A DNA stretch of 64,000 nucleotides from Ylistrum balloti (taxonomy: Eukaryota): positions 908,070 to 972,069 of the forward strand of contig NW_026782006.1 in NCBI RefSeq assembly GCF_031769215.1. The letters are read 5' to 3'. The position numbers and the translations under genes were made by a program. The notes below the pieces were generated by a model. It did not search any database, was not told the origin of the DNA, and was given only the letters and a program-made list of their open reading frames with translations. Shown here piece by piece: positions 3,214-55,798 of this stretch. Numbering within the stretch: position 1 is the stretch's first letter; each line of letters starts with the position of its first letter.

Positions 3214-3449
3214 AAGTTGAGACTAAGGTGTTTCACTTTGAAAGGTGGTGATTCAACATAATTTTACAGACCATGTATTTGGTCAGTCAAATTAATACCC
3301 CCTGGTCTTCTGAAAAAAAATAAGAGCAAATTTGTCCAGGATATGCCTAATTTATAAACATGAGAAGTTTGCAAAATATTTTCAGAGTAATATATATCAC
3401 ATTTGTAACATCAAATAGTGCTAATTTACTTGATTAAACATTAAATGAT

Positions 3450-7425: not shown

Positions 7426-7798
7426 AGGTCACAGCAGCCTCATTATCTCAATCAGGTCACAGCAGTCTCATTATCTCAATCAGGTCACAGTAGCCTCATT
7501 ATCTCAATCAGTTCACAGCAGCCTCATTATCTCAATCAGGTCACAGCAGCCTCATTATCTCAATCAGGTCACAGCAGCCTCATTATCTCAATCAGGTCAC
7601 AGCAGCCTCATTATCTCAATCAGGTCACAGTAGCCTCATTATCTCAATCAGGTCACAGCAGCCTCATTATCTCAATCAGGTCACAGCAGCCTCATTTTTC
7701 AATCAGGTCACAGTAGCCTCATTATCTCAATCAGGTCACAGCAGCCTCATTATCTCAATCAGGTCACAGTAGCCTCATTATCTCAATCAGGTCACAGT
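7426..7798. repeat. 28-bp minisatellite (caggtcacagcagcctcattatctcaat), copy 1
   Basis: Tandem periodicity; derived from a motif inside spacer C. Confidence 0.95.
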
Positions 7799-8017
7799 AC
7801 CAAATCACATATCTAGTTGATAAGATTCAAGCTTTTATTGGATATACTCACCTTAGAAGGTATTGGTAATATTCTATCTTTGGAAAACTGTACCACAGGA
7901 GCCCTTCAAATCAAGAATGATGACCATTTAGAAATTATTTCAGGATTGACAATCCATTTTAACATCTATACAACAAATTATTCAACAATTGTTTTATAAC
8001 AAACATTGGAGTACACA

Positions 8018-9307
8018 TCATATAACTCCAGACTATTGTAGACAACATATAACTCAAGGTTATGGTAGACAACATATAACTCCAGATTATGGTAGACAAC
8101 ATATAGCTCCAGGTTATTGCAGACAACATATAGCTCCAGGTTATGGTAGACAACATATAACTCCAGATTATGGTAGACAACATATAACTTCAGGCTATAG
8201 TAGACAACATATAACTCCAGGTTATGGTAGACAACATATAACTCCAGGTTATGGTAGACAACATATAGCTCCAGGTTATTGCAGACAACATATAACTCAA
8301 GGTTATGGTAGACAACATATAACTCCAGGTTATGGTAGACAACATATATCTCCAGACTATGATAGACAACATATAACTCCAGGTTATGGTAGACAACACA
8401 TAACTTCAGGCTATGAAAGACAACATATACCTCCAGACTATGATAGACAACATATAACTCCAGGTTATGGTAGACAACATATAACTCCAGGTTATGGTAG
8501 ACAACATATAGCTCCAGGTTATTGCAGACAACATATAACTCAAGGTTATGGTAGAAAACATATAACTCCAGGTTATGGTAGACAACATATAGCTCCAGAC
8601 TATGATAGACAACATATAACTCCAGGTTATGGTAGACAACATATAACTTCAGGCTATGGTAGACATCAATGAACTCCAGGCTATGGTAGACAACATATAC
8701 CTCCAGGTTATGGTAGACAACATATAACTCCAGGTTATGGAAGACAACATATAACTCCAGGTTACGGTAGACAACATATAACTCAAGGTTATGGTAGACA
8801 ACATATAGCTCCAGGTTATGGTAGACATCATTGAACTCCAGACTATGGTAGACAACATATAACTCAATGTTATGGTAGACAACATATACCTCCACATATC
8901 TCCAGGTTATGGTAGACATCATTGAACTCCAGACTAAGATAAGACAACATATAACTCCAGGTTATGGTAGACAACATATAACTCCAGGTTATGGTAGACA
9001 ACATATAACTCCAGGCTATGGTAGATAACATATAACTCCAGGTTATGGTAGACAACATATAACTCCAGGTTATGGTAGACAACATTGAACTCCAGGTTAT
9101 GGTAGACAACATTGAACTCCAGGCTATGGTAGATAACATATAACTCAAGGTTATGGTAGACAACATATAACTCCAGGTTATGGTAGACAACATATAACTC
9201 CAGGTTATGGTAGACAACATATAACTCCAGGTTATGGTAGACAACATATAACTCCAGGTTATGGTAGACAACATATAACTCCAGGTTATGGTAGACAACA
9301 TATAACT
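8018..9307. repeat. 27-bp minisatellite, copy 2 (about 48 units)
   Basis: Same unit as 2545-3213. Confidence 0.95.
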
Positions 9308-9549
9308 CTAGGTTGAGACTAAGGTGTTTCACTTTGAAAGGTGGTGATTCAACATAATTTTACAGACCATGTATTTGGTCAGTCAAATTAATACCCCCTG
9401 GTCTTCTGAAAAAAAATAAGAGCAAATTTGTCTAGGATATGCCTAATTTATAAACATGAGAAGTTTGCAAAATATTTTCAGAGTAATATATATCACATTT
9501 GTAACATCAAATAGTGCTAATTTGCTTGATTAAACATTAAATTATGTAA

Positions 9550-11565
9550 CAATCTAACATCTGATGCTGTAGTACTTACTTATACTGCTCTGACTGTAAA
9601 CAATCTAACATCTGATGCTGTAGTACTTACTTATACTGCTCTGACTGTAAACAATCTAACATCTGATGCTGTAGTACTGCTCTGACTGTAAACAATCTAA
9701 CATCTGATGCTGTAGTACTTACTTATACTGCTCTGACTGTAAACAATCTAACATCTGATGCTGTAGTACTTACTTATACTGCTCTGACTGTACACAATCT
9801 AACATCTGATGCTGTAGTACTTACTTATACTGCTCTGACTGTAAACAATCTAACATCTGATGCTGTAGTACTTACTTATACTGCTCTGACTGTAAACAAT
9901 CTAACATCTGATGCTGTAGTACTTACTTATACTGCTCTGACTGTACAGATGTACACAATCTAACATCTGATGCTGTAGTACTTACTTATACTGTTCTGAC
10001 TGTACACAATCTAACATCTGATGCTGTAGTACTTACTTATACTGCTCTGACTGTACACAATCTAACATCTGATGCTGTAGTACTTACTTATACTGCTCTG
10101 ACTGTACACAATCTAACATCTGATGCTGTAGTACTGCTCTGACTGTAAACAATCTAACATCTGATGCTGTAGTACTGCTCTGACTGTACACAATCTAACA
10201 TCTGATGCTGTAGTACTTACTTATACTGCTCTGACTGTACACAATCTAACATCTGATGCTGTAGTACTTACTTATACTGCTCTGACTGTACACAATCTAA
10301 CATCTGATGCTGTAGTACTGCTCTGACTGTACACAATCTAACATCTGAAGCTCTAGTACTTACATATACTGCTCTGACTGTACACAATCTAACATCTGAT
10401 GCTGTAGTACTTACTTATACTGCTCTGACTGTACACAATCTAACATCTGATGCTGTAGTACTGCTCTGACTGTAAACAATCTAACATCTGATGCTGTAAT
10501 ACTGCTCTGACTGTACACAATCTAACATCTGATGCTGTAGTACTTACTTATACTGCTCTGACTGTACACAATCTAACATCTGATGCTGTATTACTGCTCT
10601 GACTGTAAACAATCTAACATCTGATGCTGTAGTACTTACTTATACTGCTCTGACTGTACACAATCTAACATCTGATGCTGTAGTACTGCTCTGACTGTAA
10701 ACAATCTAACATCTGATGCTGTAGTACTGCTCTGACTGTAAACAATCTAACATCTGATGCTGTAGTACTGCTCTGACTGTACACAATCTAACATCTGATG
10801 CTGTAGTACTGCTCTGACTGTACACAATCTAACATCTGATGCTGTAGTACTGCTCTAGTACTGCTCTGACTGTACACAATCTAACATCTGATGCTGTAGT
10901 ACTGCTCTGACTGTAAATAATCTAACATCTGATGCTGTAGTACTTACTTATACTGCTCTGACTGTACACAATCTAACATCTGATGTACTTACTTATACTG
11001 CTCTGACTGTACACAATCTAACATCTACAAATTATACTGCTCTGACTGTACACAATCTAACATCTGATGCTGTAGTACTGCTCTGACTGTACACAATCTA
11101 ACAACAGAGTACTGCTCTGACTGTAAACAATCTAACATCTGATGCTGTAGTACTGCTCTGACTGTACACAATCTAACATCTGATGCTGTAGTACTGCTCT
11201 GACTGTACACAATCTAACATCTGATGCTGTAGTACTTACTTATACTGCTCTGACTGTACACAATCTAACATCTGATGCTGTAGACTTACTTATACTGCTC
11301 TGACTGTACACAATCTAACATCTGATGCTGTAGTACTGCTCTGACTGTAAACAATCTAACATCTGATGCTGTAGTACTTACTTATACTGCTCTGACTGTA
11401 AACAATCTAACATCTGATGCTGTAGTACTGCTCTGACTGTACACAATCTAACATCTGATGCTGTAGTACTTACTTATACTGCTCTGACTGTAAACAATCT
11501 AACATCTGATGCTGTAGTACTTACTTGTACTGCTCTAACTGTAAACAATCTAACACCTCATACTG
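9550..11565. repeat. 51/42-bp minisatellite, copy 2
   Basis: Same unit. Confidence 0.95.
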
Positions 11566-12545
11566 GTCTTCTACTTCACAACTCATTTCCAAGGCCAATT
11601 CCTCCTGTCCCTTCTCTATCCAATTCTGAAGACTTGATTAGAATTTGATATTAATCAGAGCTGTATCAAGCAGAAGTTTTTGTCAGATATTGTTAAGAAA
11701 TCATTCCCTTATCAGCATAACCCTTGTCAAAAGTCTTAAGAAATGTGGTTTTCCTCATCTTTGAATTATGGGACCAGTATGAATTTCCAGGTGATAAAAT
11801 TGACTGTCAATGAAAAAAATCCTTCATCTTAATTTCTCAATCTATTAACCTGTTTGAAAGTGTTGTTTTCTAATATGATAAACACTAGCAGTGATCAACA
11901 GTTGGGATATTAGGGTATTTTATGTAAATATACTAAATTTGTGTGATCAAATTTTAGTGCATCATTACTCTGGCAAATTAGTACGTTGATGAGCTTGTGT
12001 ATCCATAGTCAAGATCAACATGGAAAACTGGAAAAAATATCAGCTAATCAGGTCACACCAGCCTCATTAAATATGCACAGAATTTGCCAATAATCACACT
12101 TTAACAAGAGATTAAGGTAACAAGTCTACCAACCAAGCCTCCTCATAATTCATTTGTTCCTACAAAAGATAACATGTGGAAAGCATTCAGTTAGAGTGTC
12201 ACAAAATATCAGCCAATCAGGTCACAGCAGTCTCATCAAGTATGCATAGAGTTTGCAGATACTCAAACCTGAAGAAGGAATTAATGTAATAAGTCTATAA
12301 AGCAAGTTTCCTAAAAATTCTTATCATTTCTTCTTAAGATAAGGTGCAGAAAGATTTCCCATAGAGTGATTAAAGAAATCAACCAAGTCACAGCAGCCTC
12401 ATTAAATATGAGCAGAATTCACCGTATGTCAAAATTGGGAGAGGGATTAAGGTAACAAGTGAACCAACCAAGTTTCTTCAAAATTCTACCAGTCCTTCTA
12501 AAAATATCGAGTGGAGAGAAATTAAAGAAAACACTCAATCAGGTC

Positions 12546-12864
12546 ACAGCAGCCTCATTATCTCAATCAGGTCACACATTATCTCAATCATCACAGTAGC
12601 CTCATTATCTCAATCAGTTCACAGCAGCCTCATTATCTCAATCAGGTCACAGCAGCCTCATTATCTCAATCAGGTCACAGCAGCCTCATTATCTCAATCA
12701 GGTCACAGTCATTATCTCAATCAGGTCACAAGTAGCCTCATTATCTCAATACAGGTCACAGCAGCCTCATTATCTCAATCAGGTCACAGTACACATTATC
12801 TCAATCAGGTCACAGTAGCCTCATTATCTCAATCAGGTCACACATATCTCAATCAGGTCACTGT
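12546..12864. repeat. 28-bp minisatellite, copy 2
   Basis: Same unit. Confidence 0.9.
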
Positions 12865-13086: not shown

Positions 13087-13508
13087 TATAACTCCAGACT
13101 GTAGACAACATATAACTCTGAGGTTATAGTAGACAACATATAACTCCAGATTATGGTAGACAACATATAGCTCCAGGTTATTGCAGACAACATATAGCTC
13201 CAGGTTATGGTAGACAACATATAACTCCAGATTATGGTAGACAACATATAACTTCAGGCTATGATAGACAACATATAACTCCAGGTTATGGTAGACAACA
13301 TATAGCTCCAGGTTATTGCAGACAACATATAACTCAAGGTTATGGTAGACAACATATAACTCCAGGTTATGGTAGACAACATATACTCCAGACTATGTAG
13401 ACAACATATAACTCAGGTTATGGTAGACAACATATAACTCCAGGTTATGGTAGACAACTGTAGTACAACATTAACTCCAGGTTATGGTAGACAACATATA
13501 ACTCTTAT
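13087..13508. repeat. 27-bp minisatellite, copy 3, degenerate with many small indels
   Basis: Same unit but decayed; runs directly into the 51-bp array with spacer B missing. Confidence 0.8.
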
Positions 13509-15605
13509 GGTAGACTAACATCTGAACAATATCTAACATCTGATGCTGTAGTACAACTTATAACTGCTCTGACTGTACTGCTCTGACTAACTCTGATGCT
13601 GTAGTACTTAAACTGCTCTGACTGTACACAATCTAACATCTAACATATACTGCTCTGACTGTACACAATCTAACATCTGATGCTGTAGTACTTACTTATA
13701 CTGCTCTGACTGTACACAATCTAACATCTGATGCTGTAGTACTTACTGACTGTAAACAATACTGCTCTGATGCCTACTTACAACATGTAGAATTTAACAT
13801 CTGATGCTGTACTTACTATATACTGCTCTGACTGTACACAATCTAACATCTGATGCTGTAGCTTACTTATACTGCTCTGACTGTACACAATCTAACATCT
13901 GATGCTGTAGTACTTACTTATACTGCTCTGACTGTAATCTAACAATCTAACATCTGATGCTGTAGTACTTACTTATACTGCTCTGACTGTACACAATCTA
14001 ACATCTGATGCTGTAGTACTGCTCTGACTGTACACAATCTAACATCTGATGCTGTAGTACTGCTCTGACTGTACACAATCTAACATCTGATGCTGTAGTA
14101 CTGCTCTGACTGTAAACAATCTAACATCTGATGCTGTAGTACTGCTCTGACTGTACACAATCTAACATCTGATGCTGTACTGCTCTGACTGTACACAATC
14201 TAACATCTGACTGTAGTACTTACTTATACTGCTCTGACTGTACACAATCTAACATCTGATGCTGTAGTACTGCTCTGACTGTACACAATCTAACATCTGA
14301 TGCTGTAGTACTTACTTATACTGCTCTGACTGTACACAATCTAACATCTGATGCTGTAGTACTGTACACAATCTAACATCTACTTATACTGCTCTGACTG
14401 TACACAATCTAACATCTGATGCTGTAGTACTTACTTATACTGCTCTGACTGTACACAATCTAACATCTGATGCTGTACTGCTCTGACTGTACACAATCTA
14501 ACATCTGATGCTGTAGTACTGCTCTGACTGTACACAATCTAACATCTGATGCTGTAGTACTTACTTATACTGCTCTGACTGTACACAATCTAACATCTGA
14601 TGCTGTAGTACTTACTTATACTGCTCTGACTGTAAACAATCTAACATCTGATAGCTGCTCTGACTGTACACAATCTAACATCTGATGCTTATACTGCTCT
14701 GACTGTACACAATCTAACATCTGATGCTGTAGTACTTACTTATACTGCTCTGACTGTACACAATGACTGTACACAATCTAACATCTGATGCTGTAGTACT
14801 TACTTATACTGCTCTGACTGTACACAATCTAACATCTGATGCTGTAGTACTGCTCTGACTGTACACAATCTAACATCTGATGCTGTAGTACTTACTTATA
14901 CTGCTCTGACTGTAAACAATCTAACATCTGATGCTGTAGTACTGCTCTGACTGTACACAATCTAACATCTGATGCTGTAGTACTTACTTATACTGCTCTG
15001 ACTGTACACAATCTAACATCTGATGCTGTAGTACTTACTTATACTGCTCTGACTGTACACAATCTAACATCTGATGCTGTAGTACTGCTCTGTACACAAT
15101 CTAACATCTGATGCTGTAGTACTTACTTATACTGCTCTGACTGTACACAATCTAACATCTGATGCTGTAGTACTTACTTATACTGCTCTGACTGTAAACA
15201 ATCTAACATCTGATGCTGTAGTACTTACTTATACTGCTCTGACTGTACACAATCTAACATCTGATGCTGTAGTACTGCTCTGACTGTAAACAATCTAACA
15301 TCTGATGCTGTAGTACTGCTCTGACTGTACACAATCTAACATCTGATGCTGTAGTACTGCTCTGACTGTAAACAATCTAACATCTGATGCTGTAGTACTG
15401 CTCTGACTGTAAACAATCTAACATCTGATGCTGTAGTACTGCTCTGACTGTAAACAATCTAACATCTGATGCTGTAGTACTGCTCTGACTGTAAACAATC
15501 TAACATCTGATGCTGTAGTACTTACTTATACTGCTCTGACTGTAAACAATCTAACATCTGATGCTGTAGTACTTACTTGTACTGCTCTAACTGTAAACAA
15601 TCTAA
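13509..15605. repeat. 51/42-bp minisatellite, copy 3 (5-prime part scrambled)
   Basis: Same unit; first ~1.3 kb has many indels. Confidence 0.9.
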
Positions 15606-16595
15606 CACCTCATACTGGTCTTCTACTTCACAACTCATTTCCAAGGCCAATTCCTCCTTCCCTTCTCTATCCAATTCTGAAGACTTGATTAGAATTTGAT
15701 ATTAATCAGAGCTGTATCAAGCAGAAGTTTTTGTCAGATATTGTTAAGAAATCATTCCCTTATCAGCATAACCCTTGTCAAAAGTCTTAAGAAATGTGGT
15801 TTTCCTCATCTTTGAATTATGGGACCAGTATGAATTTCCAGGTGATAAAATTGACTGTCAATGAAAAAAATCCTTCATCTTAATTTCTCAATCTATTAAC
15901 CTGTTTGAAAGTGTTGTTTTCTAATATGATAAACACTAGCAGTGATCAACAGTTGGGATATTAGGGTATTTTATGTAAATATACTAAATTTGTGTGATCA
16001 AATTTTAGTGCATCATTACTCTGGCAAATTAGTACGTTGATGAGCTTGTGTATCCATAGTCAAGATCAACATGGAAAACTGGAAAAAATATCAGCCAATC
16101 AGGTTACACCAGCCTCATTAAATATGCACAGAATTTGCCAATAATCACACTTTAACAAGAGATTAAGGTAACAAGTCTACCAACCAAGCCTCCTCATAAT
16201 TCATTTGTTCCTACAAAAGATAACACGTGGAAAGCATTCAGTTAGAGTGTCACAAAATATCAGCCAATCAGGTCACAGCAGTCTCATCAAGTATGCATAG
16301 AGTTTGCAGATACTCAAACCTGAAGAAGGAATTAATGTAATAAGTCTGTAAAGCAAGTTTCCTAAAAATTCTTATCATTTCTTCTTAAGATAAGGTGCAG
16401 AAAGATTTCCCATAGAGTGATTAAAGAAATCAACCAAGTCACAGCAGCCTCATTAAATATGAGCAGAATTCACCGTTAGTCAAAATTGGGAGAGGGATTA
16501 AGGTAACAAGTGAACCAACCAAGTTTCTTCAAAATTCTACCAGTCCTTCTAAAAATATCGTGTGGAGAGAAATTAAAGAAAACACTCAATCAGGT

Positions 16596-16810
16596 CACAG
16601 CAGCCTCATTATCTCAATCAGGTCACATCAGCCTCATTATCTCAATCAGGTCACAGTAGCCTCATTATCTCAATCAGGTCACATCAGCCTCATTATCTCA
16701 ATCAGGTCACATCAGCCTCATTATCTCAATCAGGTCACAGTAGCCTCATTATTTCAATCATGTCACAGTAGCCTCATTATCTTGATCAGGTCACAGTAGC
16801 CTCATTATCT
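16596..16810. repeat. 28-bp minisatellite, copy 3
   Basis: Same unit. Confidence 0.9.
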
Positions 16811-29800: not shown

Positions 29801-32800
29801 TAATTTTTCAATGTCAAAATTCTAGACAAGTCAACTGTTGACCATGGTGTTTTTCTGATCAGTCCCAAAATCAAAGGGGCTCAATTAGGGACTGAGGGAA
29901 ACCTACAAATGAACTTTGAGAAAAGATCCATCCTCTAATTCTCAGGAGAAAGTGATAATTGAAATTATTTATGGATGGTCATAAAAAATGGACATCAGGC
30001 AGTTTTAAAAGCCCACCATCAGATGATGGTGGGGAAAAATCTAAACATTACAAAACTTGATTAAATTTGAAGTTTTGTTACATAAAAATTCATCTTAATG
30101 CTTGCAATTTTGATCTCAGTCTTAGTGTAAAAAAATATTTGTGATTTTCAGTTAATGTTTGTCATGGTCTGTGGAGGCTGTGTATCTGTGACTTCCTATC
30201 AACGTTTGTGATAGTCTGTTGAGGCTGTGCATCTGTGACTTCCTGTCAATGTCTGTGAAAATCTGTTAAGGCTGTGTATCTGTGACTTCCTGTCAATGTT
30301 TGTGATGGACTGTTGAAGCTGTGTATCTGTGGCTTCCTGTCAATGTTTGTGATGGTCTGTGGAGGCTGTGTATCTGTGACTTCCTGTCAATGTCTGTGAT
30401 GGTCTGTGGAGGCTGTGTATCTGTGACTTCCTGTCAATGTTTGTGATAGTCTGTTGAGGCTGTGTATCTGTGACTTCCTGTCAATGTTTGTGATAGTCTG
30501 TTGAGGCTGTGTAACTGTGACTTCCTGTCAATGTTTGTGATAGTCTGTGGAGGCTGTGTATCTGTGACTTCCTATCAACGTTTGTGATAGTCTGTTGAGG
30601 CTGTGCATCTGTGACTTCCTGTCAATGTCTGTGAAAGTCTGTTAAGGCTGTGTATCTGTGACTTCCTGTCAATGTTTGTGATGGTCTGTTGAAGCTGTGT
30701 ATCTGTGGCTTCCTGTCAATGTTTGTGATAGTCTGTTGAGGCTGTGTAACTGTGACTTCCTGTCAATGTTTGTGATAGTCTGTGGAGGCTGTGTATCTGT
30801 GACTTCCTGTCAATGTTTGTGATAGTCTGTTGAGGCTGTGTAACTGTGACTTCCTGTCAATGTTTGTGATAGTCTGTGGTGGCTGTGTATCTGTGACTTC
30901 CTGTCTGCTGTGTAACTGTGACTTCCTGTCAATGTTTGTGATAGTCTGTTGAGGCTGTGACTTCCTGTCAATGTTTGTGATAGTCTGTCTATTGAGGCTG
31001 TGTATCTGTGACTTCCTGTCAATGTTTGTGATATGGTCTGTGGAGGCTGTGTATCTGTGACTTCCTGTCAATGTTTGTGATAGTCTGTTGAGGCTGTGTG
31101 TATAGTCTGTTGAGGCTGTGCATCTGTGACTTCCTGTCAATGTTTGTGATAGTCTGTGTGAGGCTGTGTATAGTCTGTGAGGACTGTGACTTCCTGTCAA
31201 TGTTTGTGATAGTCTGTGGAGGCTGTGTATCTGTGACTTCCTGTCAATGTTTGTGATAGTCTGTTGAGGCTGTGTAACTGTGACTTCCTGTCAATGTTTG
31301 TGATAGTCTGTGGTGGCTGTGTATCTGTGACTTCCTGTCAATGTTTGTGATAGTCTGTTGAGGCTGTGTAACTGTGACTTCCTGTCAATGTTTGTGATAG
31401 TCTGTTGAGGCTGTGTAACTGTGACTTCCTGTCAATATCTGTGATAGTCTGTTGAGGCTGTGTATCTGTCACTCCCTGTCAATGTATGTGATAGTCTATT
31501 GAGGCTGTGTATCTGTGACTTCCTGTCAATGTTTGTGATGGACTGTTGAAGCTGTGTATCTGTGGCTTCCTGTCAATGTTTGTGATGGTCTGTGGAGGCT
31601 GTGTATCTGTGACTTCCTGTCAATGTCTGTGATGGTCTGTGGAGGCTGTGTATCTGTGACTTCCTGTCAATGTTTGTGATAGTCTGTTGAGGCTGTGTAT
31701 CTGTGACTTCCTGTCAACGTTTGTGATAGTCTGTTGAGGCTGTGCATCTGTGACTTCCTGTCAATGTCTGTGAAAGTCTGTTAAGGCTGTGTATCTGTGA
31801 CTTCCTGTCAATGTTTGTGATGGTCTGTTGAAGCTGTGTATCTGTGGCTTCCTGTCAATGTTTGTGATAGTCTGTTGAGGCTGTGTAACTGTGACTTCCT
31901 GTCAATGTTTGTGATAGTCTGTGGAGGCTGTGTATCTGTGACTTCCTGTCAATGTTTGTGATAGTCTGTTGAGGCTGTGTAACTGTGACTTCCTGTCAAT
32001 GTTTGTGATAGTCTGTGGTGGCTGTGTATCTGTGACTTCCTGTCAATGTTTGTGATAGTCTGTTGAGGCTGTGTAACTGTGACTTCCTGTCAATGTTTGT
32101 GATAGTCTGTTGAGGCTGTGTAACTGTGACTTCCTGTCAATATCTGTGATAGTCTGTTGAGGCTGTGTATCTGTCACTCCCTGTCAATGTATGTGATAGT
32201 CTATTGAGGCTGTGTATCTGTGACTTCCTGTCAATGTTTGTGATAGTCTGTTAAGGCTGTGAAACTGTGACTTCCTTTCAATGTTTGTGATAGTCTGTGG
32301 TGGCTGTGTATCTGTGACTTCCTGTCAATGTCTGTGATAGTGTGAAGAGGCTGTGTATCTGTCACTCCCTGTCAATGTCTGTGATAGTATGAAGAGGCTG
32401 TGTATCTGTCACTCCCTGTCAATGTCTGTGATAGTATGAAGAGGCTGTGTATCTGTCACTCCCTGTCAATGTCTGTGATAGTCTATTGAGGCTGTATATC
32501 TGTCACTTCCTGTTAATGTTTGTGATAGTATGTTGAGGGTTTGTATCTGTCACTTCCTGTCAATGTCTGTGATAGTATGAAGAGGCTGTGTATCTGTCAC
32601 TTCCTGTCAATGTCTGTGATAGTCTATTGAGGCTGTGTATCTGTCACGTCCTGTTAATGTTTGTGATAGTATGTTGAGGGTTTGTATCTGTCACTTCCTG
32701 TCAATGTCTGTGATAGTATGAAGAGGCTGTGTATCTGTCACTTCCTGTCAATGTCTGTGATAGTCTATTGAGGCTGTGTATCTGTCACTTCCTGTCAATG

Positions 32801-35800
32801 TCTGTGATAGTATGAAGAGGCTGTGTATCTGTCACTTCCTGTCAATGTCTGTGATAGTATGTTGAGGCTGTGTATCTGTCACTTCCTGTCAATGTCTGTG
32901 ATAGTATGAAGAGGCTGTGTATCTGTCACTTCCTGTCAATGTCTGTGATAGTATGAAGAGGCTGTGTATCTGTCACTTCCTGTCAATGTCTGTGATAGTA
33001 TGAAGAGGCTGTGTATCTGTCACTTCCTGTCAATGTCTGTGATAGTATGAAGAGGCTGTGTATCTGTGACTTCCTGTCAATGTCTGTGATAGTATGAAGA
33101 GGCTGTGTATCTGTGACTTCCTGTCAATGTCTGTGATAGTATGAAGAGGCTGTGTATCTGTCACTTCCTGTCAATGTCTGTGATAGTATGAAGAGGCTGT
33201 GTATCTGTCACTTCCTGTCAATGTCTGTGATGGTATGAAGAGGCTGTGTATCTGTTACTTCCTGTCAATGTCTGTGATAGTATGAAGAGGCTGTGTATCT
33301 GTCACTTCCTGTCAATCTTTATGATAGACTGGTGGTGATTATATTCTTACATTGCTGTCCTGAGAGCTCTTTTTCCATGGTGCTAAGGTACCTGGAAGAC
33401 GGAAACTGACAAGATCATCTTCAACCTGTAATTCTGTGACATAGGTTATCTTGATAACAACATCTGCATTGGCCGGAACATTTCCCACACTGACTGTAAA
33501 CACATCCTGTTAAGAAAATGAAAACTGTCAAATCATCAGAACCTCAGCTTCAAGATTTGCTGAAGATGAACATGTACCTTATACTGTTGAAACTTGTCTC
33601 AAAAATCCAAATCCAAATTCTGTTAGAGTTTAAATAATTTTCAAGTCATGAACTTTTTCCTATCATATCTTTGTAATTTCAGTTTGGATGACTCGAATTT
33701 CATTGAGTCGAAATTTCGGTTGAGTCAAAGCAATTTTTCAGTCCCTTCCATTGGAAAGCAAGGGAAAACTCATTTATTGTCTTGAAATTGATTTTTGTCA
33801 AAACAATGGTTTGTCTTCTGACCAAATCGACAAATACATACACAAAGTAGAAAGTCACATATGTGTAACACATGGCTAATTACAGCATATCTGTGGTCCA
33901 TCGTACACACAAAACTTGGTCACTGGCGATTAGTTACCAGTTTAATTATCCAATTAAAGTTTGGCTTCTTAATTAGTGTCACCATCTTGTAGAAGTGACT
34001 TACCTGTACATTAAAAAAGTAGCATGTTAACACAAAACATGAAAACATTTAGCTTGGTTGCGTGCATCTTCAGGAACAATAAAAACGAAACTGTCAAACC
34101 AGTATAAACTTTTTGACGAAATCTGATCCCAACAATTCCAAAAGAAACTAATTTTAAGCTTGTTTACTAAAGGACTGTGATCGGTAACTTTGTAAGATTT
34201 AGTGTTTGGACAATGAAGTGCTGAACGTATCTGTCGTTAATTTTTCATTAATTCATGATTAAACAATGGTGTAAAAACTAACATCAGGAAAAAACATAGG
34301 AGTCCGCCTTGTGTATAATACTGTTTGACACTTTCTGTTATCTGGTTCCTTCTGCTTGTAGATTTTATCCGTTAAAGTCATTAATGCCCTTGTAACTGAT
34401 ACATAATTTAGATTGAACACTTTATAGATTTTATCTGTGTAAGTCATTAATGCCTTTGTAACTGGTACATAATTTGGATTGAACACCTTATAGATTCAGA
34501 TCAGAATTCAAATTGAATTTCGGTTTTCCTTTCATTGAATCAATACTTAAAACTCTTTCACAAAAGTTTGTTTTGAAATAGTAATTCTAACAAGCTGTTT
34601 GACATACCGGTGATTCTTCATCCTGATCCATCAGGTAGGCCCCATGGCCCTCACTGATAGCCTTTTTGTACTCTTGGTGAGCCGTCTCTTTTTCTTTCAC
34701 CTCCCCGACCACATGCTTGTCATTGATGTATGCTTCAAATCCACACACTGCAGCCATCTCATCAAGGGGAAAGACATACTTGCCCTCCAACATTTCCTCA
34801 CTGTTGTTATGGTAATGTTGTAAAACCTTCACCTGACAAGGTTAAGGTCACAACTCACTGTTTAAAGTTATAACTACACCAATCTCCATATAAATGAGGA
34901 GACAGGATGTATCAGCTCAAATTAACCTTATTTTGCAGTTTTGAACATAATGTGTCACATAAATGTTTTGACATAACTAATCCTCACCTGATATGTCAAG
35001 GTTCAACAGTTTAAATTAGTCAAAACTTTGTCAAACTCGTCAAGGTCACAATTATCTACTGTTACAATTACACTATGTCAAGGTCACAATTACCTACTGT
35101 TACAATTACACTATGTCAAGGCCACAATTACCTACTGTAACAATTACACTATGTCAAGGCCACAATTACCTACTGTAACAATTACACTATATCAAGGCCA
35201 CAATTATCTACTGTAACAATTACACTATGTCAAGGTCACAATTATCTACTGTAACAATTACACTATGTCAAGGTCACAATTACCTACTGTAACAATTACA
35301 CTATGTCAAGGCCACAATTACCTACTGTAACAATTACACTATATCAAGGCCACAATTACCTACTGTAACAATTACACTATGTCAAGGTCACAATTATCTA
35401 CTGTAACAATTACACTATGTCAAGGTCACAATTACCTGCTGTAACAATTACACTATGTCAAGGTCACAATTATCTACTATAACAATTACACTATGTCAAG
35501 GTCACAATTACCTACTGTAACAATTACACTATGTCAAGGTCACAATTACCTACTGTTACAATTACACTATGTCAAGGTCACAATTACCTACTGTTACAAT
35601 TACACTATGTCAAGGTCACAATTATCTACTGTTACAATTGCACTATGTCAAGGTCACAATTATCTACTGTTGCAATTACACTATGTCAAGGTCACAATTA
35701 CCTACTGTTACAATTACACTATGTCAAGGTCACAATTACCTACTGTAACAATTATACTAACTTTGTTTATTAATAATACACTAGTACCATTATTAATTAT

Positions 35801-50319: not shown

Positions 50320-50358
50320 TCAATTCCGTAACTTTGCAAGTCTCTGCGTTAACTCATC
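50320..50358 (-). CDS. CHMP1: CHMP1 terminal exon DELTQRLAKLRN*
   Basis: Acceptor ctttttcttcag|; matches CHMP1B C-terminus DELSQRLARLRDQV. Confidence 0.8.
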   Translation of the reverse strand, partial: DELTQRLAKLRN

Positions 50359-53300
50359 CTGAAGAAAAAGAAAACAATTACTTTAGCTGTGTATTTTACA
50401 AAGAATTTCCATAAGCAGTTAGAACATTTCTTTGTAGATGTCAATATACTAACAGGTTTTACAGATAAAGTATAATTTGTAAAAATGCAAATTGTTGAAT
50501 ATATTTAAAATCACTCCATAAATTGCACTTAACATCTACATCACTCTCCAGAATACTAATCACTATCAAAAAGAGAACTGAATAAAATGTAACATACTAA
50601 ACTTTCCTGCAATTAAAATGTCAGATTCCTGGATCACTACTTATATTTTCTTAAGAAGTTACAGAAAACCAATGACTAATACACAGACTACTCATCAGAT
50701 GAAAATTTTAATTAACTAAAATTTTTTTTAAAATCACATCTAAAAAGTCAACTACCCCTAACCAACTTATTCCTGAACAAGATCAGGCCAAAGAGCCACT
50801 TGAATTCTATTAAACTTCATGCTTGTTCACAAAATAGTTGATGATGCTACCACTTAACCCAGAAACTTACCTGTCCAATACTAACAGCTGATGCTGTCAC
50901 CACTTAACACAAAAACTTACCTGTCCAATACTAACAGCTGATGCTGTCACCACTTAATACAGAAACCTACCTGTTCACTACTAGCAGTTGATGATGCGAC
51001 CCCTGATGGTAAAGTGGACTGTGCTGATGGTAGATCCATGTTTAATTCCAATCTGTAACACAGGACACATACAATGTATCTATGATCAAAAGAGAATTGA
51101 TTCTAAAGTCTCATAAGTTAGCAAAATGAACACCAAAGGAATTACCACAAGTATAGAAGTGGTACATCACTTCATACAATCGAGTAGGACAGCTTGTGCA
51201 ATTGTATACACAACAAGTAAACTACAATAGATAATCCATTTCATATATACATATGTTCATTGTGTATCTCTAGTACATCAACAAACATCCTGTTTTCATA
51301 ATACATCATTGAAATCTGTTGATGGTCTTCCATAGACAAAGTTGACAGATAACTGAACAAAAATATGTGAAATTATAGTTCATCAAAAACAAATATTGAA
51401 GGTTTTACTGATTGACATACCCAGCCTCATCAGCAACTTCCTGCATAAGGCCTTCCACCTGTGTCTGTGGTGTGTTGAGGGTGGACGAAGCATTCATTGT
51501 ATCCTCCATTACCTGTGACTGCACATCTAGATTCTCAAACTGCTGTTCAAATCTATCCATCAACTGGGAGATCTGTAAAAAGGAGGAATCACATTCATTT
51601 CAAAATCTGATGGATAACACAACACTTGTCGGAAGATATCAAGTTATGTACAGTATCATAAAATGAAGAGGTGCCCTTCACACCCTGCTTAACTACAACT
51701 TGACACCAATAATTAACTGCTTTCTAACACGATCAATATGATATATAGTCTGGAGTAGTATTTACAGGCCCAAGGAACACTACATATGTACATACTAAAT
51801 TTGATAAAGATTAGATTTTTGAATTCTGAAAAGCATCATAGATGAACACTTCAAAATACATCAATATATCTCATCATTCTCCAGGTGAAGTTTCATTATA
51901 ACAAAAATAAATTTACCTTCTCCAGATTCATACTCTTCATTGCTGATTCCATTGACTTGACCACACCTGCCATGGAACCTGTGACCTGCCGATCATAGAC
52001 ATTTACATATTTTATTCATATCTAGAAATCTAATTTATCAATTCACCTTCATATATTTCTAACAAAATAGATCTGTATTCTTTAAAGAAGCAATATTTAC
52101 AGAAATCCCAGTGACATTTTATGAAATTCACTATATATAAAGTTGGTTGTTGGTCTGTAACAATACAGTTCAATATTGTAAAGGTACATGCTGTAGAAGT
52201 AATATTATTTTAGTGTTTTTCATGTTAAGGATATCGCACAAAAATGGCTTTGAGAATTTCCAATTTCTGTACCTTGTCAATAGAGCAATTATTGTAAAGG
52301 CAAAAATTCAACATAGAACTTATTTGTTTAAAATTTAAAATGAACTGTGCCGAAATAAATATGTTTAAGACTTAGTGAACATGTCAGAAAATAACATAAA
52401 TCTGAGGTAACCTTGACTGAAGTTACCAAGCAAACTCTATAAATGATGAATGAGTAAGATATTATGTACCTGTTTCATGGTGACAGCAGTTTGAACTCGA
52501 GCTGCTACAGCATCGATCCTTGCACTCATACGTCTGTAATTAAGGGCCTGGTTTTTCTGGCGGATTGAATTCTCTGCATGTATTCTGGCTCCCTCCAGGT
52601 TACCTTTCTGGATAGCCTGTAACAAGTAAATTCTTATTTTTTAGAAAGAATCTGAATACACAACCTGAGACTCTAATAACATCAAAATGAGATTTAATTT
52701 AGAAATTATGATCAAATTTCGTATAAATTCTACACTGATCTGACATAGACCAAGGCTGTAAGATTATCAGAGAGCACTAATATCAAAAGCAATATGAGGT
52801 TTCATTAAAGTGTCTGATTGTAACAATGACAGTGTTAAGAACTAGACAAACTATTTCTTGCCAAATGTTGACTTCCAGCAGTGTCCTACCCCTTTGGTGG
52901 TACATGACACACTGTCTGAAGGCATTTTCTAAATCATATTGTGTTCTAAATTTCATTAAGGTAACTGGAAGAAAAGAGAAACCATGTGCAAGATGGCACT
53001 AGTTGTACCAATATGATCTTCACCAGTGATCTAAATTAGCCTTCTTATTAATGCACATGAATATGGAGGCCCTGCTTGACTAGACTTGTATTTAAAACAA
53101 GTTGTACATCTTATTTCTTTACATATATGTACAGTTTTTAAAACAAAAAATTGAACTTAAAGATGTACATTTACAATTATAATTTCATTTTACCAGTATA
53201 ATGTTACAGAATATCATCATCACCTGTACATATGATTGACAATTCCAATATTTCTGTGTTACAATAAACTCACCTTTTTCAATTTTCTTTTTTCTGATCT

Positions 53301-54623
53301 TTCTTCCTTATCACATTTGTTAGCAAAACGCAGCAGTGACCTAGCACTATATTTCAAATTGAAGAGTTGTCCTGCAGTGTGTTAAGGTTTAGATCTGTGT
53401 GCTAAGTGTGTTATACAAAAGCTTAGGTATAGGTCAAAGATTATGTCAGTTATAGAAAAGTAATGCATACAGATATATCCTAAAGAATTAGAAACATGTA
53501 TGAATTATGCTCCGATGACTAGGCTTATCAGCAAAATGAAATAACAAGGTTAAGTTTGTGATTCCTTGTGTATAATTGAGATTATGTAAAATTTGGTTGC
53601 AAATTGTTTTATCTAATATCCATTATAAATCCCATCATTCACTTCATAGGGCAGTCATTATAAAACAACTGAACTGCCAGAAAATTTACTAGCAATACCT
53701 CACACAACAATTACCTTGGAGGATCAGAACTGTGTTTATGATAGTAATAAGTAATCAAATGCTGCTACAGCCTTACATCATTGCTGTAGAGATGAAATGG
53801 TACATATAATTGTGTTTATACAGATTGTGTTAAGTACCTCTATTTTAAATACATAATCGCCATTTGGCACATCAGTAACATTTGTCCTTTACATGTTACA
53901 GTAAAAACGGTTTAGATCAAATTCTATCATACTGATCAGTTATAGTTTTTCTTAATTATACTTTAAGATGTCAGTAACCAGTAAGTTCTAGGCTTCTCTT
54001 GACCGAGCCTAAAGTTAAGATTCTTGTAAGCTCTAAGTTTACCTTGACCAAGCCCAAGATCATGATTCCAAATTTCTTAGTTTCCCTTGACTAGGCCTAC
54101 AGTTAATATTCTAGTCAGTTCCAAGTTTCTCTTGACAAGGCAAAAGGTGAAGATTCTAGTAAGATTGAAGTATACCTAGACCAGACCTAAGGTTAAGGAG
54201 AATCAACAAGAATTACAAGTTTGTTTTTACAACTCATTTCCTATTGTCAATGTCATTCTATGCTTGTATAATATAAGATATGTGTAATAGAATAAGTGCA
54301 TTACAATAAGTGCTATACGATGTAATATTTTATATTGGTAATATCTTAAACATATAATTGTTTCAAGTTATATGTGGTACACTAGTCAATACTTACCTTA
54401 TAATTACATACATATGTAACTAATTATTTGTAAAATACTTACCTTATAATTACTGGTAATCAATGCATAAATTTCTGAGTTATACTTACTTACAAGCTCA
54501 TTAAAAGGTATATGAGCAACGTTACCTTTTTTAATTTGGTTTTTTCTTCTTTTTCTGACTTTTCACTTCGTTTTGCATTGCGTTCCAAGTCCTTTGCAGC
54601 AAATTTGAGATTAAAGAGATGTT
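50320..54623 (-). CDS. CHMP1: CHMP1 (charged multivesicular body protein 1, ESCRT-III; CHMP1B-like) gene, exons 2-7 modelled, exon 1 not found
   Basis: Exons translate to HLFNLKFAAK...AIQKGNLEGARIHAENSIRQKNQALN..RMSARIDAVAARVQTAVTM...VTGSMAGVVKSM...ISQLMDRFEQQFENLDVQ...DELTQRLAKLRN*, collinear with human CHMP1B; canonical splice sites and phases. Confidence 0.85.
50878..50978. repeat. CHMP1: ~47-bp unit x3: tandem triplication of the CHMP1 exon-6 tail plus its GTAAGT/GTAGGT donor
   Basis: Minus-strand reading: ...GTGAACAG|gtaggtttctgtattaagtggtgacagcatcagctgttagtattggacag|gtaagtttttgtgttaagtggtgacagcatcagctgttagtattggacag|gtaagtttctgggtt. Confidence 0.85.
50971..51052 (-). CDS. CHMP1: CHMP1 exon 6 (G)LELNMDLPSAQSTLPSGVASSTASSEQ
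   Basis: Acceptor gtgttacag|, donor CAG|gtaggt; this donor is tandemly triplicated downstream. Confidence 0.8.
51421..51572 (-). CDS. CHMP1: CHMP1 exon 5 ISQLMDRFEQQFENLDVQSQVMEDTMNASSTLNTPQTQVEGLMQEVADEA(G)
   Basis: Acceptor cctttttacag|, donor GG|gtatgt. Confidence 0.85.
51917..51985 (-). CDS. CHMP1: CHMP1 exon 4 VTGSMAGVVKSMESAMKSMNLEK
   Basis: Acceptor ctatgatcggcag|, donor AAG|gtaaat. Confidence 0.85.
52470..52616 (-). CDS. CHMP1: CHMP1 exon 3 AIQKGNLEGARIHAENSIRQKNQALNYRRMSARIDAVAARVQTAVTMKQ
   Basis: Acceptor cttgttacag|, donor CAG|gtacat; near-identical to CHMP1B. Confidence 0.9.
53274..53371 (-). CDS. CHMP1: CHMP1 exon 2, copy A (paralogous alternative): QLFNLKYSARSLLRFANKCDKEERSEKRKLKK
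   Basis: Acceptor cactgcag|, donor AAG|gtgagt; identical 98-bp length and phase to copy B, 1.25 kb downstream. Confidence 0.65.
54526..54623 (-). CDS. CHMP1: CHMP1 exon 2, copy B: (K)HLFNLKFAAKDLERNAKRSEKSEKEEKTKLKK
   Basis: Acceptor agtctag|, donor AAG|gtaacg; 98 bp with 2+32 codons; closest match to CHMP1B EKHLFNLKFAAKELSRSAKKCDKEEKAEKAKIKK. Confidence 0.7.
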
Positions 54624-55798
54624 CTAGACTGTTAAGGTATATCAGTCAAAGCATGCAATAGGTATATATATCAATATACATAAAAACACAGTCATATATA
54701 TAAAAAACTATACACAATTAAGATTAAGGACGCTTAATATACAGCTATATATATCTTATTGGAAAGGTATGATATACTTTTATGATGATAAACATATAAA
54801 CTTAGAATAAATTCATAATTCCAGAGACATATATAACGTGTTACATACGTCTATGACAATTCCAATATGCAGATTTTTGTTGAATATTGTTAAAAAACCT
54901 ATAACATGCTAATAATCATAATGATGACATCTTATAGCATCTAACAATCTTTTTGATGGAGGATATGTATAACGTATACAGATAACACAGGACCACAAAC
55001 TTATAATTATAGACATACACATTTAAGTCTATGATACATATAGGACATGTCTATGCATCTATACAGTTAATTCTATCCCGAACCTGGTAAGAGTGATAAA
55101 CCCCGTCACAATTTTGTAACATGAATCTGGATTCAGTTTAATCATATATACATGAACAAACTAAAATTAAAGCACTCGCTTTGCTGAAAACAAATTTTGT
55201 ATCTGTATATCTATATTTAAGTTCAGAGCTAACAGTACTTTATAGTAAATATCACAATCAACATCACTTATTTATTTTACAACATGAGGGTTTATGACAT
55301 GGGCCATATTCACTACCTTGAATGGCACTTCAGTAGAAATCCCCTAAATGGTACAATGTTTAAGAATCCTAATATTTCCAATAAACAATTCCATGTGTAA
55401 TCAGGAAATCGTGACTTCCAATGTTTACATTTTCTGCTTCCATCAAGCAAACAGATCTTGAGAATCAACATCTCACCCATTTTTAAGCATCAGAATGTTT
55501 TCATTAATAGTTTAAAGGATACTGTCCATCGACATCTTTCGTTTCTGTTTTCCTCAGATTAAGTTTCCCTGTGTTTGTGTTTAAGATCTGTCTGCAAGAG
55601 TTGTGATTGAGAAATGACTACTTCCCTTGTGATGTTTAATGGAAAATGAGCTCATTGTAAAACGTCATCGGTATTTGTGTATTATTTGGATATCGGAACA
55701 CCTTTGAATCGATCCTTTACTTGAGTGCATGTTGCATTGGGTAATGTAAAAATACGAGGACTTCCGACTTGGAGAAGAGCACATGGGTTTCAGTAAAC
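54624..55798. promoter_or_regulatory. Putative shared divergent promoter region between CHMP1 (minus) and URB1 (plus); the unidentified CHMP1 exon 1 should lie here
   Basis: Head-to-head gene orientation; URB1 ATG at 55799; CHMP1 exon 2 needs an upstream exon that supplies the ATG and one phase base. Confidence 0.3.

What the first reader, a model, noticed from the sequence alone, without database searches (positions are those of the whole stretch)
53274..54623. CHMP1 carries two paralogous 98-bp versions of exon 2, a candidate mutually exclusive exon pair
Both exons have the same length and phase (2+32 codons), good acceptors and donors, and encode the N-terminal helix: HLFNLKFAAKDLERNAKRSEKSEKEEKTKLKK and QLFNLKYSARSLLRFANKCDKEERSEKRKLKK. 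Splicing both in would duplicate the helix; exactly one is expected. In vertebrates this diversity is provided by separate CHMP1A and CHMP1B genes.
Basis: partly seen in the sequence, partly recalled or inferred. Interest (0 to 1): 0.65.

Follow-up and report, generated by a model that had tools for sequence, protein, structure and literature searches.

The report
Scallop CHMP1 alternative exons, minor-spliceosome switch
A scallop membrane-remodelling gene (CHMP1) carries a scallop-specific, unannotated second copy of its exon 2; both copies sit behind signals of the rare "minor" spliceosome, an arrangement that should force the cell to use exactly one of them, although no transcript carrying the second copy has yet been seen.

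Summary
On the minus strand of this Ylistrum balloti (scallop) window, CHMP1 has two 98-nt, phase-1 copies of exon 2 (2A 54526-54623, 2B 53274-53371; 17/32 aa identical). Exon 2B is unannotated and matches no protein in a 5.8-billion-sequence search. It is nevertheless conserved in four scallop genomes under strong purifying selection (dN/dS 0.04-0.16), and only in the frame produced by direct exon 1-to-2B splicing. Five other molluscs have a single exon 2. Intron 1 is an ancient U12-type (minor-spliceosome) intron, with donor GTATCCTTT conserved from coral to frog. The duplication copied its U12 branch site (CCTTAAC, 9-11 nt before the AG) in front of both exons. The 2A and 2B donors and the exon 3 acceptor are U2-type. 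The U12 donor of exon 1 should therefore join only 2A or 2B; the 2A-to-2B and exon 1-to-3 joins are cross-type. Both failures also shift the frame (98 nt), so NMD is a backup; double inclusion would not "duplicate the helix". Exon 2B replaces near-invariant helix-α1 residues, including a PIP2-binding lysine. This is a new member of the rare JNK-type class. Transcript evidence is still lacking.

The parts
55523..55535 (-). CHMP1 exon 1 coding part (ATGTCGATGGACA; ends in phase 1)
   Evidence: identical in all four scallops
55514..55522 (-). U12-type 5' splice site GTATCCTTT of intron 1
   Evidence: 0 mismatches to the consensus in 4 scallops. It is the only GTATCCTT on either strand of the window. 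It is conserved in Mya, Sinanodonta, Aplysia, Saccostrea, Saccoglossus, Acropora and a frog, with one mismatch in Solemya.
54652..54657 (-). TGCATG (Rbfox-type motif) 33-35 nt upstream of exon 2A
   Evidence: Present at -33/-35 in all four scallops. No GCATG lies within 150 nt either side of exon 2 in six single-exon outgroups. The regulatory role is inferred, not shown.
54631..54638 (-). U12-type branch-point sequence ACCTTAAC of the exon 2A acceptor (branch A at -9; -11 in the other scallops)
54526..54623 (-). Exon 2A, 98 nt, (K)HLFNLKFAAKDLERNAKRSEKSEKEEKTKLKK; ancestral-type, the annotated isoform
   Evidence: 100% aa identity in 4 scallops, 29/32 to the unionid single exon 2
54520..54525 (-). 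U2-type donor of exon 2A (GTAACG)
   Evidence: 3-4 mismatches to the U12 donor consensus in all scallops
53372..54525 (-). [quoted passage not shown]
53381..53388 (-). U12-type branch-point sequence ACCTTAAC of the exon 2B acceptor (branch A at -11)
   Evidence: 0-1 mismatch and the same -11 spacing in all four scallops. In Argopecten it is TCCTTGAC-N8-CAG, followed by a 12-nt in-frame insertion.
53274..53371 (-). Exon 2B, 98 nt, (R)QLFNLKYSARSLLRFANKCDKEERSEKRKLKK; derived, unannotated alternative exon
53266..53273 (-). U2-type donor of exon 2B (GTGAGTTT), identical in all four scallops
52470..52616 (-). Exon 3 (AIQKGNLEG...TMKQ) with a U2-type acceptor (no TCCTTAAC-like site; 3 or more mismatches)
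50320..51985 (-). Remaining CHMP1 coding exons 4-7 (51917-51985, 51421-51572, 50971-51052, 50320-50358), all with U2-type sites

Best explanation
Exons 2A and 2B are a scallop-lineage tandem duplication of CHMP1 exon 2, and they function as mutually exclusive coding exons. The duplicated unit included the 3' end of the ancient U12-type intron 1. The single U12-type donor of exon 1 (GTATCCTTT) therefore now faces two U12-type acceptors (CCTTAAC 9-11 nt before the AG), one in front of each exon copy. Both copies carry U2-type donors, and exon 3 has a U2-type acceptor.

U12- and U2-type sites cannot be paired, so only two productive paths exist: e1-(U12)-2A-(U2)-e3 and e1-(U12)-2B-(U2)-e3. Joining 2A to 2B would need a hybrid intron, and joining e1 to e3 is also cross-type. 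Any leakage is caught by the reading frame: 98 nt is not divisible by 3, so both errors create early stop codons that should trigger NMD.

Exon 2A is the default, ancestral version. Exon 2B yields a CHMP1 whose membrane-facing helix α1 keeps its heptad core but has a remodelled surface: F12Y, A13S, K15R, E18L, N20F, K22N (a PIP2-contact lysine) and T33R.

Shown: the anatomy, the conservation, the selection and the splice-site types. Inferred: actual 2B usage, U12 dependence, and the functional difference between the isoforms. Speculative: a scallop-specific UGCAUG upstream of 2A lets an Rbfox-type factor repress 2A and switch to 2B in particular cells.
For: Anatomy and frame.

Exon 2B is conserved in Argopecten, Pecten and Mizuhopecten at the same position, with the GTGAGTTT donor invariant.

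Purifying selection on 2B: dN/dS 0.04-0.16 at dS 0.34-0.99, with neutrality rejected at p = 7e-5.

Frame control: only the e1-to-2B frame is open in all four species. Codon differences there are 35 synonymous to 18 non-synonymous, against 10:55 and 2:60 in the other frames. Variable sites by codon position are 4/3/14. The double-inclusion frame has stops in every species.

U12 typing: the e1 donor has 0 mismatches to GTATCCTTT. The 2A and 2B acceptors have 0-1 mismatch to TCCTTAAC with the branch A at -9/-11. The 2A, 2B and e3 donors have 3-6 mismatches, and the e3 acceptor has 3 or more.

GTATCCTT is unique in 128 kb, counting both strands.

The same U12 intron is present in 5 other molluscs, a hemichordate, a cnidarian (donor only) and a frog.

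Argopecten keeps a U12 acceptor and the reading frame despite a 12-nt indel.

There is a single exon 2 in Solemya, Mya, Sinanodonta, Aplysia and Saccostrea.

Definitions and precedent: the U12 features and the 11-13 nt optimum spacing (PMC3584512); the JNK hybrid intron (PMC1874599); 5 of 629 human MXE clusters show U2/U12 incompatibility (PMC5740500).

Protein level: 8 of 9 heptad a/d positions are identical against 9 of 24 others (p = 0.017). Seven 2B residues are seen in 0 of 39 other metazoan CHMP1 proteins. K22 corresponds to CHMP1A K20, a PI(4,5)P2 contact.
Against: There is no transcript or protein evidence for 2B. The exact isoform B is absent from a 15-billion-sequence collection. No LKYSA-type N-terminus appears among full-length or fragment hits. 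Two metagenome/metatranscriptome scans were empty. RefSeq models of all four scallops use only 2A. Exon 2B must therefore be rare, tissue- or stage-restricted, or missed by the annotation pipelines.

The absence of a polypyrimidine tract is not a sharp discriminator here, because some U2 acceptors of this gene also have weak tracts. CTTAAC also fits the loose U2 branch consensus, so some U2 use of the 2B acceptor cannot be excluded. U12 dependence was not tested experimentally. The heptad assignment is read from the sequence, not from coordinates.
Confidence: 0.7

Rival explanations
1. Exon 2B is a dead pseudo-exon: a relic of a tandem duplication that is never spliced into functional mRNA.
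For: No annotated isoform, assembled transcript or protein fragment contains it.
Against: The reading frame is intact in four species at dS up to about 1. dN/dS is 0.04-0.16 and variation is concentrated at third codon positions. The donor GTGAGTTT is invariant and the U12 branch site keeps a fixed spacing, while the surrounding intron is unalignable. The indel in Argopecten is in frame.
Confidence: 0.07
2. Exon 2B is a regulatory poison exon. It is included together with 2A to create a premature stop and down-regulate CHMP1 through NMD, and it is not used to make protein.
For: Double inclusion does create a stop 6 codons into 2B. Conserved poison exons are known in other genes (own knowledge).
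Against: Selection acts on the CHMP1 reading frame of 2B, which is read only when 2A is absent. In the double-inclusion frame the changes are 10 synonymous to 55 non-synonymous. The heptad core of the helix is preserved. The 2B acceptor is U12-type and should not pair with the U2-type donor of 2A.
Confidence: 0.06
3. The pair is mutually exclusive, but this is enforced only by frame and NMD (or by trans-acting factors). The CCTTAAC in front of 2B is a leftover of the duplication, and the 2B acceptor is in fact used by the major spliceosome.
For: Most human MXE clusters rely on frame incompatibility (60% have lengths not divisible by 3; PMC5740500). CTTAAC also fits the degenerate U2 branch consensus. 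Polypyrimidine content does not separate the acceptors of this gene cleanly.
Against: To be translated in its conserved frame, 2B must be joined to exon 1, whose donor is a perfect U12 site and a poor U1 site. No other RTATCCTT donor lies between e1 and 2B. The branch site and its -11 spacing are conserved in all four species, and they are kept in Argopecten despite local rearrangement.
Confidence: 0.12
4. Mutual exclusion is directed by competing RNA secondary structures (docking site and selector sequences), as in Dscam, 14-3-3ζ or ATE1.
For: Conserved intronic blocks exist just downstream of exon 1 and upstream of 2A.
Against: Duplex-energy tests between the intron 1 5' region and the flanks of 2A and 2B gave no pairing consistently better than shuffled controls. 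z-scores were mostly between -2 and +1.6, and no pair was significant in all four species. This was a weak test with 15 mononucleotide shuffles.
Confidence: 0.04

Closest known systems
Vertebrate JNK/MAPK8-10 exons 6a/6b (U2-U12 hybrid intron; Letunic 2002, Chang 2007, PMC1874599)
   Same: Two tandemly duplicated, homologous alternative exons lie next to a U12-type intron. The intron between them is a hybrid of U12- and U2-type sites that cannot be spliced, so exactly one exon is chosen.
   Different: The architecture is a mirror image. In JNK the U12 intron is downstream: each alternative exon carries a U12-type donor, and the hybrid intron has a U12 5'ss plus a U2 3'ss. Here the U12 intron is upstream: each alternative exon carries a U12-type branch site and acceptor, and the hybrid has a U2 5'ss plus a U12 3'ss. 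JNK usage is experimentally shown and tissue-specific; usage here is only inferred. The gene family and lineage (scallops) also differ.
Human MXE clusters with U2/U12 splice-site incompatibility (5 of 629 clusters; Hatje et al. 2017, PMC5740500)
   Same: It belongs to the same rare mechanistic class, and as in many such clusters the exon lengths are not divisible by 3, giving an NMD backup.
   Different: None of the searchable literature lists CHMP1. This case is invertebrate, lineage-specific and unannotated.
Frame/NMD-enforced mutually exclusive exons (about 60% of human MXE clusters have lengths not divisible by 3; PMC5740500)
   Same: Exon length (98 nt) is not a multiple of three, so double inclusion or double skipping gives a premature stop.
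   Different: Here the frame is probably the second line of defence behind spliceosome-type incompatibility.
Vertebrate CHMP1A / CHMP1B paralogues
   Same: Both provide two versions of CHMP1, including different α1 helices.
   Different: They are whole-gene paralogues, not alternative exons. Scallop 2B is not CHMP1A-like (13/32 identical to CHMP1A, against 20/32 to CHMP1B). It arose independently within the scallop lineage.

Membership tests
Mutually exclusive exon (MXE) cluster | Neighbouring exons in the same gene with similar length, identical splice phase and sequence homology | tested here: met
   Both exons are 98 nt and phase 1, with 64/98 nt and 17/32 aa identical, and no exon lies between them.
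Mutually exclusive exon (MXE) cluster | Both exons encode the same structural element of the protein | tested here: met
   Both align without gaps to residues 7-38 (helix α1) of solved human CHMP1B and to 5-36 of CHMP1A. Heptad a/d positions are 8/9 identical. A 3D model of isoform B could not be made.
Mutually exclusive exon (MXE) cluster | Mature transcripts contain exactly one of the exons | not testable with these tools
   No RNA-seq access. Indirect support: selection acts on 2B only in the frame that requires 2A to be absent. No 2B-containing protein or fragment is in the public collections.
U12-type (minor spliceosome) intron | 5' splice site /RTATCCTT | tested here: met
   A|GTATCCTTT with 0 mismatches in 4 scallops. 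It is conserved in 8 further species of 4 phyla and is unique in the window.
U12-type (minor spliceosome) intron | Branch-point sequence TCCTTAAC-like, a short distance from the 3'ss (optimum 11-13 nt) | tested here: met
   0-1 mismatch with the branch A at -9 or -11 for all eight scallop 2A and 2B acceptors. Outgroups are at about -11 to -16. The criterion is from PMC3584512.
U12-type (minor spliceosome) intron | No distinct polypyrimidine tract | tested here: inconclusive
   Pyrimidine fraction is 0.50-0.55 and the longest run is 4 nt for 2A and 2B. Some U2-type acceptors of the same gene are equally poor, for example exon 4.
U12-type (minor spliceosome) intron | Splicing depends on U11/U12/U4atac/U6atac | not testable with these tools
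   Needs knockdown or in vitro splicing.
U2/U12-incompatibility MXE (JNK type) | The intron between the alternative exons is a hybrid of U2- and U12-type sites, and the flanking introns are one U12 and one U2 | tested here: met
   The 2A donor is GTAACG/GTAAAA (U2) facing the CCTTAAC-N9-AG acceptor of 2B (U12). The e1 donor is U12 and the e3 acceptor is U2, in all four scallops.
NMD-backed MXE | Joint inclusion or joint skipping shifts the frame and creates a premature stop upstream of later exon junctions | tested here: met
   98 mod 3 = 2. The stop lies 6 codons into 2B for double inclusion and 9 codons into e3 for skipping, with 4-5 junctions downstream. The stops are present in all four species.
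Docking/selector RNA-structure MXE (Dscam type) | Conserved intronic complementarity between one docking site and a selector next to each exon | tested here: not met
   No duplex is consistently better than shuffled controls across the four species; the test had low power.
CHMP1 / ESCRT-III (Snf7 family, PF03357) | Full-length similarity to CHMP1 proteins | tested here: met
   Isoform A is XP_060065416.1 'charged multivesicular body protein 1B2-like'. Isoform B hits solved CHMP1B at E = 6e-80 and CHMP1A at 1e-54. Homologues carry PF03357.
Rbfox-regulated alternative exon | Conserved (U)GCAUG close to the regulated exon | tested here: met
   TGCATG lies at -33/-35 of exon 2A in all four scallops. 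None lies within ±150 nt of exon 2 in six outgroups.
Rbfox-regulated alternative exon | Rbfox binding and Rbfox-dependent exon choice | not testable with these tools
   Needs CLIP, knockdown or motif mutation.

The most novel reading that the evidence does not exclude
A tandem duplication of an exon together with the 3' end of an ancient U12-type intron created, in one step, an obligatorily mutually exclusive exon pair in scallops. The choice is a regulated competition between two minor-spliceosome acceptors for one minor-spliceosome donor, possibly switched by an Rbfox-type factor at the scallop-specific UGCAUG. The rare isoform is a cell-type-specific ESCRT-III subunit with an altered phosphoinositide-binding helix (K22N, F12Y, E18L, N20F). 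This would be a natural mirror image of the JNK paradigm and a rare case of regulated alternative splicing within U12 introns.
Probability: 0.25. Interest if true: 0.7.

Novelty: new member of a known kind. Interest (0 to 1): 0.55.

Why it matters
Regulated alternative splicing that involves U12-type introns is described as almost absent, with JNK as the classic exception (PMC3584512). Only about 0.8% of human mutually exclusive exon clusters use U2/U12 incompatibility (PMC5740500). This locus is a clean, datable natural experiment: it is absent in an oyster, three other bivalves and a gastropod, and present in four scallops. It shows how duplicating an exon next to a minor intron gives mutual exclusivity immediately, with the reading frame as a backup.

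The case is also of interest for ESCRT biology. The alternative exon rewrites the exposed face of CHMP1 helix α1, including a lysine that contacts PI(4,5)P2 in the solved CHMP1A-membrane structure, while the hairpin core is kept. It also flags an exon missed by the annotation of four scallop genomes.

Tried and rejected
1. Transcript or protein evidence for 2B: the exact look-up, a full-length search, an N-terminal profile search able to catch fragments and two metagenome/metatranscriptome DNA scans for the 2B core all came back negative.

2. Naming unnamed Logan clusters to find other pteriomorph species was uninformative, apart from Saccostrea.

3. Pinctada as an outgroup: the hit is an intronless retrocopy, so it says nothing about exon structure.

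4. Docking/selector RNA structures: no consistent signal (the first attempt timed out).

5. The polypyrimidine tract as a U2/U12 discriminator was not decisive in this AT-rich genome.

7. Literature searches linking CHMP1 to mutually exclusive exons, minor introns or U12 found nothing relevant. I could not consult U12DB, IAOD or MIDB, so I cannot say whether the CHMP1 minor intron is already catalogued.

8. CHMP1A-like identity of 2B is rejected (13/32).

9. The apparent loss of the 2B acceptor in Argopecten was resolved by alignment as a 12-nt in-frame insertion behind a conserved U12 acceptor.


Full report
**What is there.** The window is scallop DNA. The CHMP1 protein assembled with exon 2A is an exact match to XP_060065416.1 of Ylistrum balloti (Pectinidae). 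The gene lies on the minus strand, and its model is:
- exon 1 coding part: 55523-55535
- exon 2A: 54526-54623
- exon 2B: 53274-53371
- exon 3: 52470-52616
- exon 4: 51917-51985
- exon 5: 51421-51572
- exon 6: 50971-51052
- exon 7 coding part: 50320-50358

Exons 2A and 2B are each 98 nt and start in phase 1. Either exon alone gives an intact 199-aa CHMP1. Including both shifts the frame, with a stop 6 codons into 2B. Skipping both gives a stop 9 codons into exon 3.

**Is exon 2B real?** I found no direct evidence of expression.
- Isoform B is not in a 15-billion-sequence protein collection.
- The RefSeq proteins of all four sequenced scallops use 2A.
- Neither a full-length search nor an N-terminal profile search able to pick up fragments found any protein with the 2B signature.
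- Two scans of metagenome/metatranscriptome contigs for the 2B core were empty.

The comparative evidence, in contrast, is strong.
- The orthologous loci of Argopecten irradians, Pecten maximus and Mizuhopecten yessoensis share the head-to-head Npa1/URB1-like neighbour. All contain 2B between 2A and exon 3.
- Exon 2B is 84-93% identical between species, while its flanking intron is essentially unalignable beyond a few dozen bases.
- Pairwise dN/dS is 0.04-0.16 at dS 0.34-0.99. Neutrality is rejected at p = 7e-5 on minimal change counts.
- The frame control is decisive. Only the frame produced by joining exon 1 directly to 2B is open in all four species. That frame shows a synonymous excess (35 synonymous to 18 non-synonymous codon differences; variable sites by codon position 4/3/14).
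- The frame that double inclusion would impose contains stops in every species and shows 10:55.

Exon 2B has therefore been translated, with 2A absent, throughout scallop evolution. This is the signature expected of a mutually exclusive partner, not of a pseudo-exon or a poison exon.

**Age of the duplication.** A single exon 2 and no second copy is found in the protobranch Solemya, the heterodont Mya, the unionid Sinanodonta, the gastropod Aplysia and the oyster Saccostrea. Synteny with Npa1 is kept where the neighbouring gene was recorded (Solemya, Sinanodonta, Saccostrea). The Pinctada hit is an intronless retrocopy and is uninformative. The duplication is therefore specific to the scallop lineage. 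Evolution has been asymmetric. Exon 2A is 100% conserved at the protein level among scallops and 29/32 identical to the unionid exon, whereas 2B is 19/32.

The exon 1 donor is A|GTATCCTTT, a perfect U12-type (minor spliceosome) 5' splice site. It is the only GTATCCTT on either strand of the 64-kb window. Both 2A and 2B are preceded by CCTTAAC, the U12 branch-point consensus, with the branch adenosine 9-11 nt from the AG.

[quoted passage not shown] Scored across the four scallops:

| Site | Mismatches to U12 consensus |
|---|---|
| e1 donor | 0 |
| All eight 2A and 2B acceptors | 0-1, at -9 or -11 |
| Donors of 2A, 2B and exon 3 | 3-6 |
| Exon 3 acceptor | no site better than 3 |

The same U12 intron, at the same position and phase, is present in the five other molluscs, a hemichordate and a frog chmp1b-like gene. 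In a coral I checked only the donor, which is present. It is thus an ancient minor intron whose 3' end was copied along with the exon.

In Argopecten the orthologous AG at first seemed lost. Alignment shows that the U12 acceptor (TCCTTGAC-N8-CAG) is conserved and is followed by a 12-nt in-frame insertion. This again argues for constraint.

**Consequences of the arrangement.** The layout is: e1 [U12 donor] ... [U12 acceptor] 2A [U2 donor] ... [U12 acceptor] 2B [U2 donor] ... [U2 acceptor] e3.
- U12- and U2-type sites are not paired by either spliceosome, so the e1 donor can join only 2A or 2B.
- The 2A donor cannot use the 2B acceptor, because the 2A-2B intron is a hybrid.
- Exon 1 cannot skip to exon 3.
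- Both forbidden products are also out of frame, so NMD would remove any leakage.

This is the mechanism proposed and partly demonstrated for vertebrate JNK exons 6a/6b (PMC1874599), but in mirror image. In JNK the U12 intron lies downstream and the hybrid intron has a U12 donor and a U2 acceptor. The class is rare: 5 of 629 human MXE clusters (PMC5740500). Alternative splicing involving U12 introns is described as almost absent.

Caveats:
- Pyrimidine content does not cleanly separate U12 from U2 acceptors in this AT-rich gene.
- CTTAAC also fits the loose U2 branch consensus.
- U12 dependence is inferred from sequence only.
- A test for Dscam-style competing RNA structures found nothing consistent.

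**Regulation (speculative).** A TGCATG lies 33-35 nt upstream of exon 2A in all four scallops, and it is the only positionally conserved GCATG in the region. None of six single-exon outgroups has GCATG within 150 nt of exon 2. From general knowledge, UGCAUG is the Rbfox motif, and upstream binding usually represses an exon. That would favour 2B in Rbfox-expressing cells. This would fit the absence of 2B from bulk-tissue gene models, but it is untested.

**What the swap changes in the protein.** Both exons align without gaps to helix α1 of solved human CHMP1B and CHMP1A.
- Eight of nine heptad a/d positions are identical between 2A and 2B, against 9 of 24 other positions (p = 0.017). The heptad assignment is read from the sequence.
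- Seven 2B residues (R5, Y12, R15, L18, F20, N22, R33) occur in none of 39 other metazoan CHMP1 proteins. Most are fixed in all four scallops.
- Position 22 corresponds to CHMP1A K20. Positions 26, 29 and 37 correspond to CHMP1A K24, K27 and K35. Together these four residues contact PI(4,5)P2 and are basic from animals to plants and fungi (PMC13342873; mapping).
- Exon 2A has K, K, K, K at these four positions. Exon 2B has N (V in Mizuhopecten), K, R, K.
- Exon 2B is also more basic overall (net +8 against +6) and more hydrophobic on its exposed face.

The likely outcome is an isoform with the same hairpin core but altered lipid-headgroup or neighbour contacts. This is inferred. A 3D model could not be obtained.

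**Verdict.** The best classification is a new, lineage-specific member of the rare class of mutually exclusive exons enforced by U2/U12 spliceosome incompatibility, with NMD as a backup, in a gene family where this was not found in the searchable literature. Confidence in the overall explanation is about 0.7 and interest is 0.55.

Noticed in passing
window 50849-50993 (minus strand, CHMP1 exon 6/intron 6 boundary): The last ~29 nt of exon 6 plus its donor are tandemly triplicated (50-nt unit, 2.9 copies). This places two decoy donors ACAG|GTAAGT at +50 and +100 in intron 6, and using either would shift the frame. The array is specific to Ylistrum: it is absent in Argopecten and Pecten and not evident in Mizuhopecten.
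   Followed up: partly
window 1-42000, e.g. 2537-7797, 8011-12842, 13101-16810; 30136-33331: Much of the first 42 kb consists of minisatellite arrays (periods 27-92 nt). A composite block of a 27-mer array, a 51/92-mer array and a 28-mer array recurs three times in tandem. A 47-nt array of 68 copies at 30136-33331 accounts for the GC/AT-skew anomaly at 30-34 kb.
   Followed up: no
window 53980-54197: A degenerate 45-nt tandem repeat (4.9 copies, 64% matches) sits inside the hybrid intron between exons 2A and 2B.
   Followed up: no
window ~55799 onward (+ strand); L001-L003, L005, L007, L009: An Npa1/URB1-like gene lies head-to-head with CHMP1, about 260 bp from its ATG. This divergent pairing is conserved in scallops, Solemya, Sinanodonta and Saccostrea. 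In the window it is inferred from synteny and an ORF starting near 55799, and was not verified by a domain search.
   Followed up: partly
L004:6001-6603 (Pinctada imbricata): The annotated Pinctada CHMP1 (P0016) is intronless and lies in a different neighbourhood. It is probably a retrocopy, like mammalian CHMP1B (from my own knowledge).
   Followed up: no
L012:26906-27710 (frog Hyperolius); L011 (Acropora) 3953/7929, 4566/8543, 5089/5748: The frog locus has a ~40-nt tandem array of copies of the exon 3 3' end plus donor. The Acropora locus shows exon-2-like and exon-3-like segments twice, which is either a local duplication or an assembly artefact.
   Followed up: no
L003 (Mizuhopecten yessoensis), protein P0003: The 241-aa RefSeq/GenBank model is the same CHMP1 with a 42-residue N-terminal extension from an upstream in-frame ATG. 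The other three scallop models start at MSMDK.
   Followed up: no
window 54624-54631 (minus strand): In Ylistrum, Pecten and Mizuhopecten an AG follows the 2A branch site directly (CCTTAACAG). Using it would add 5-7 nt (5 in Ylistrum, where the next codon is TAG), shifting the frame. It is only 2-3 nt from the branch A, so it is presumably too close to be used.
   Followed up: partly
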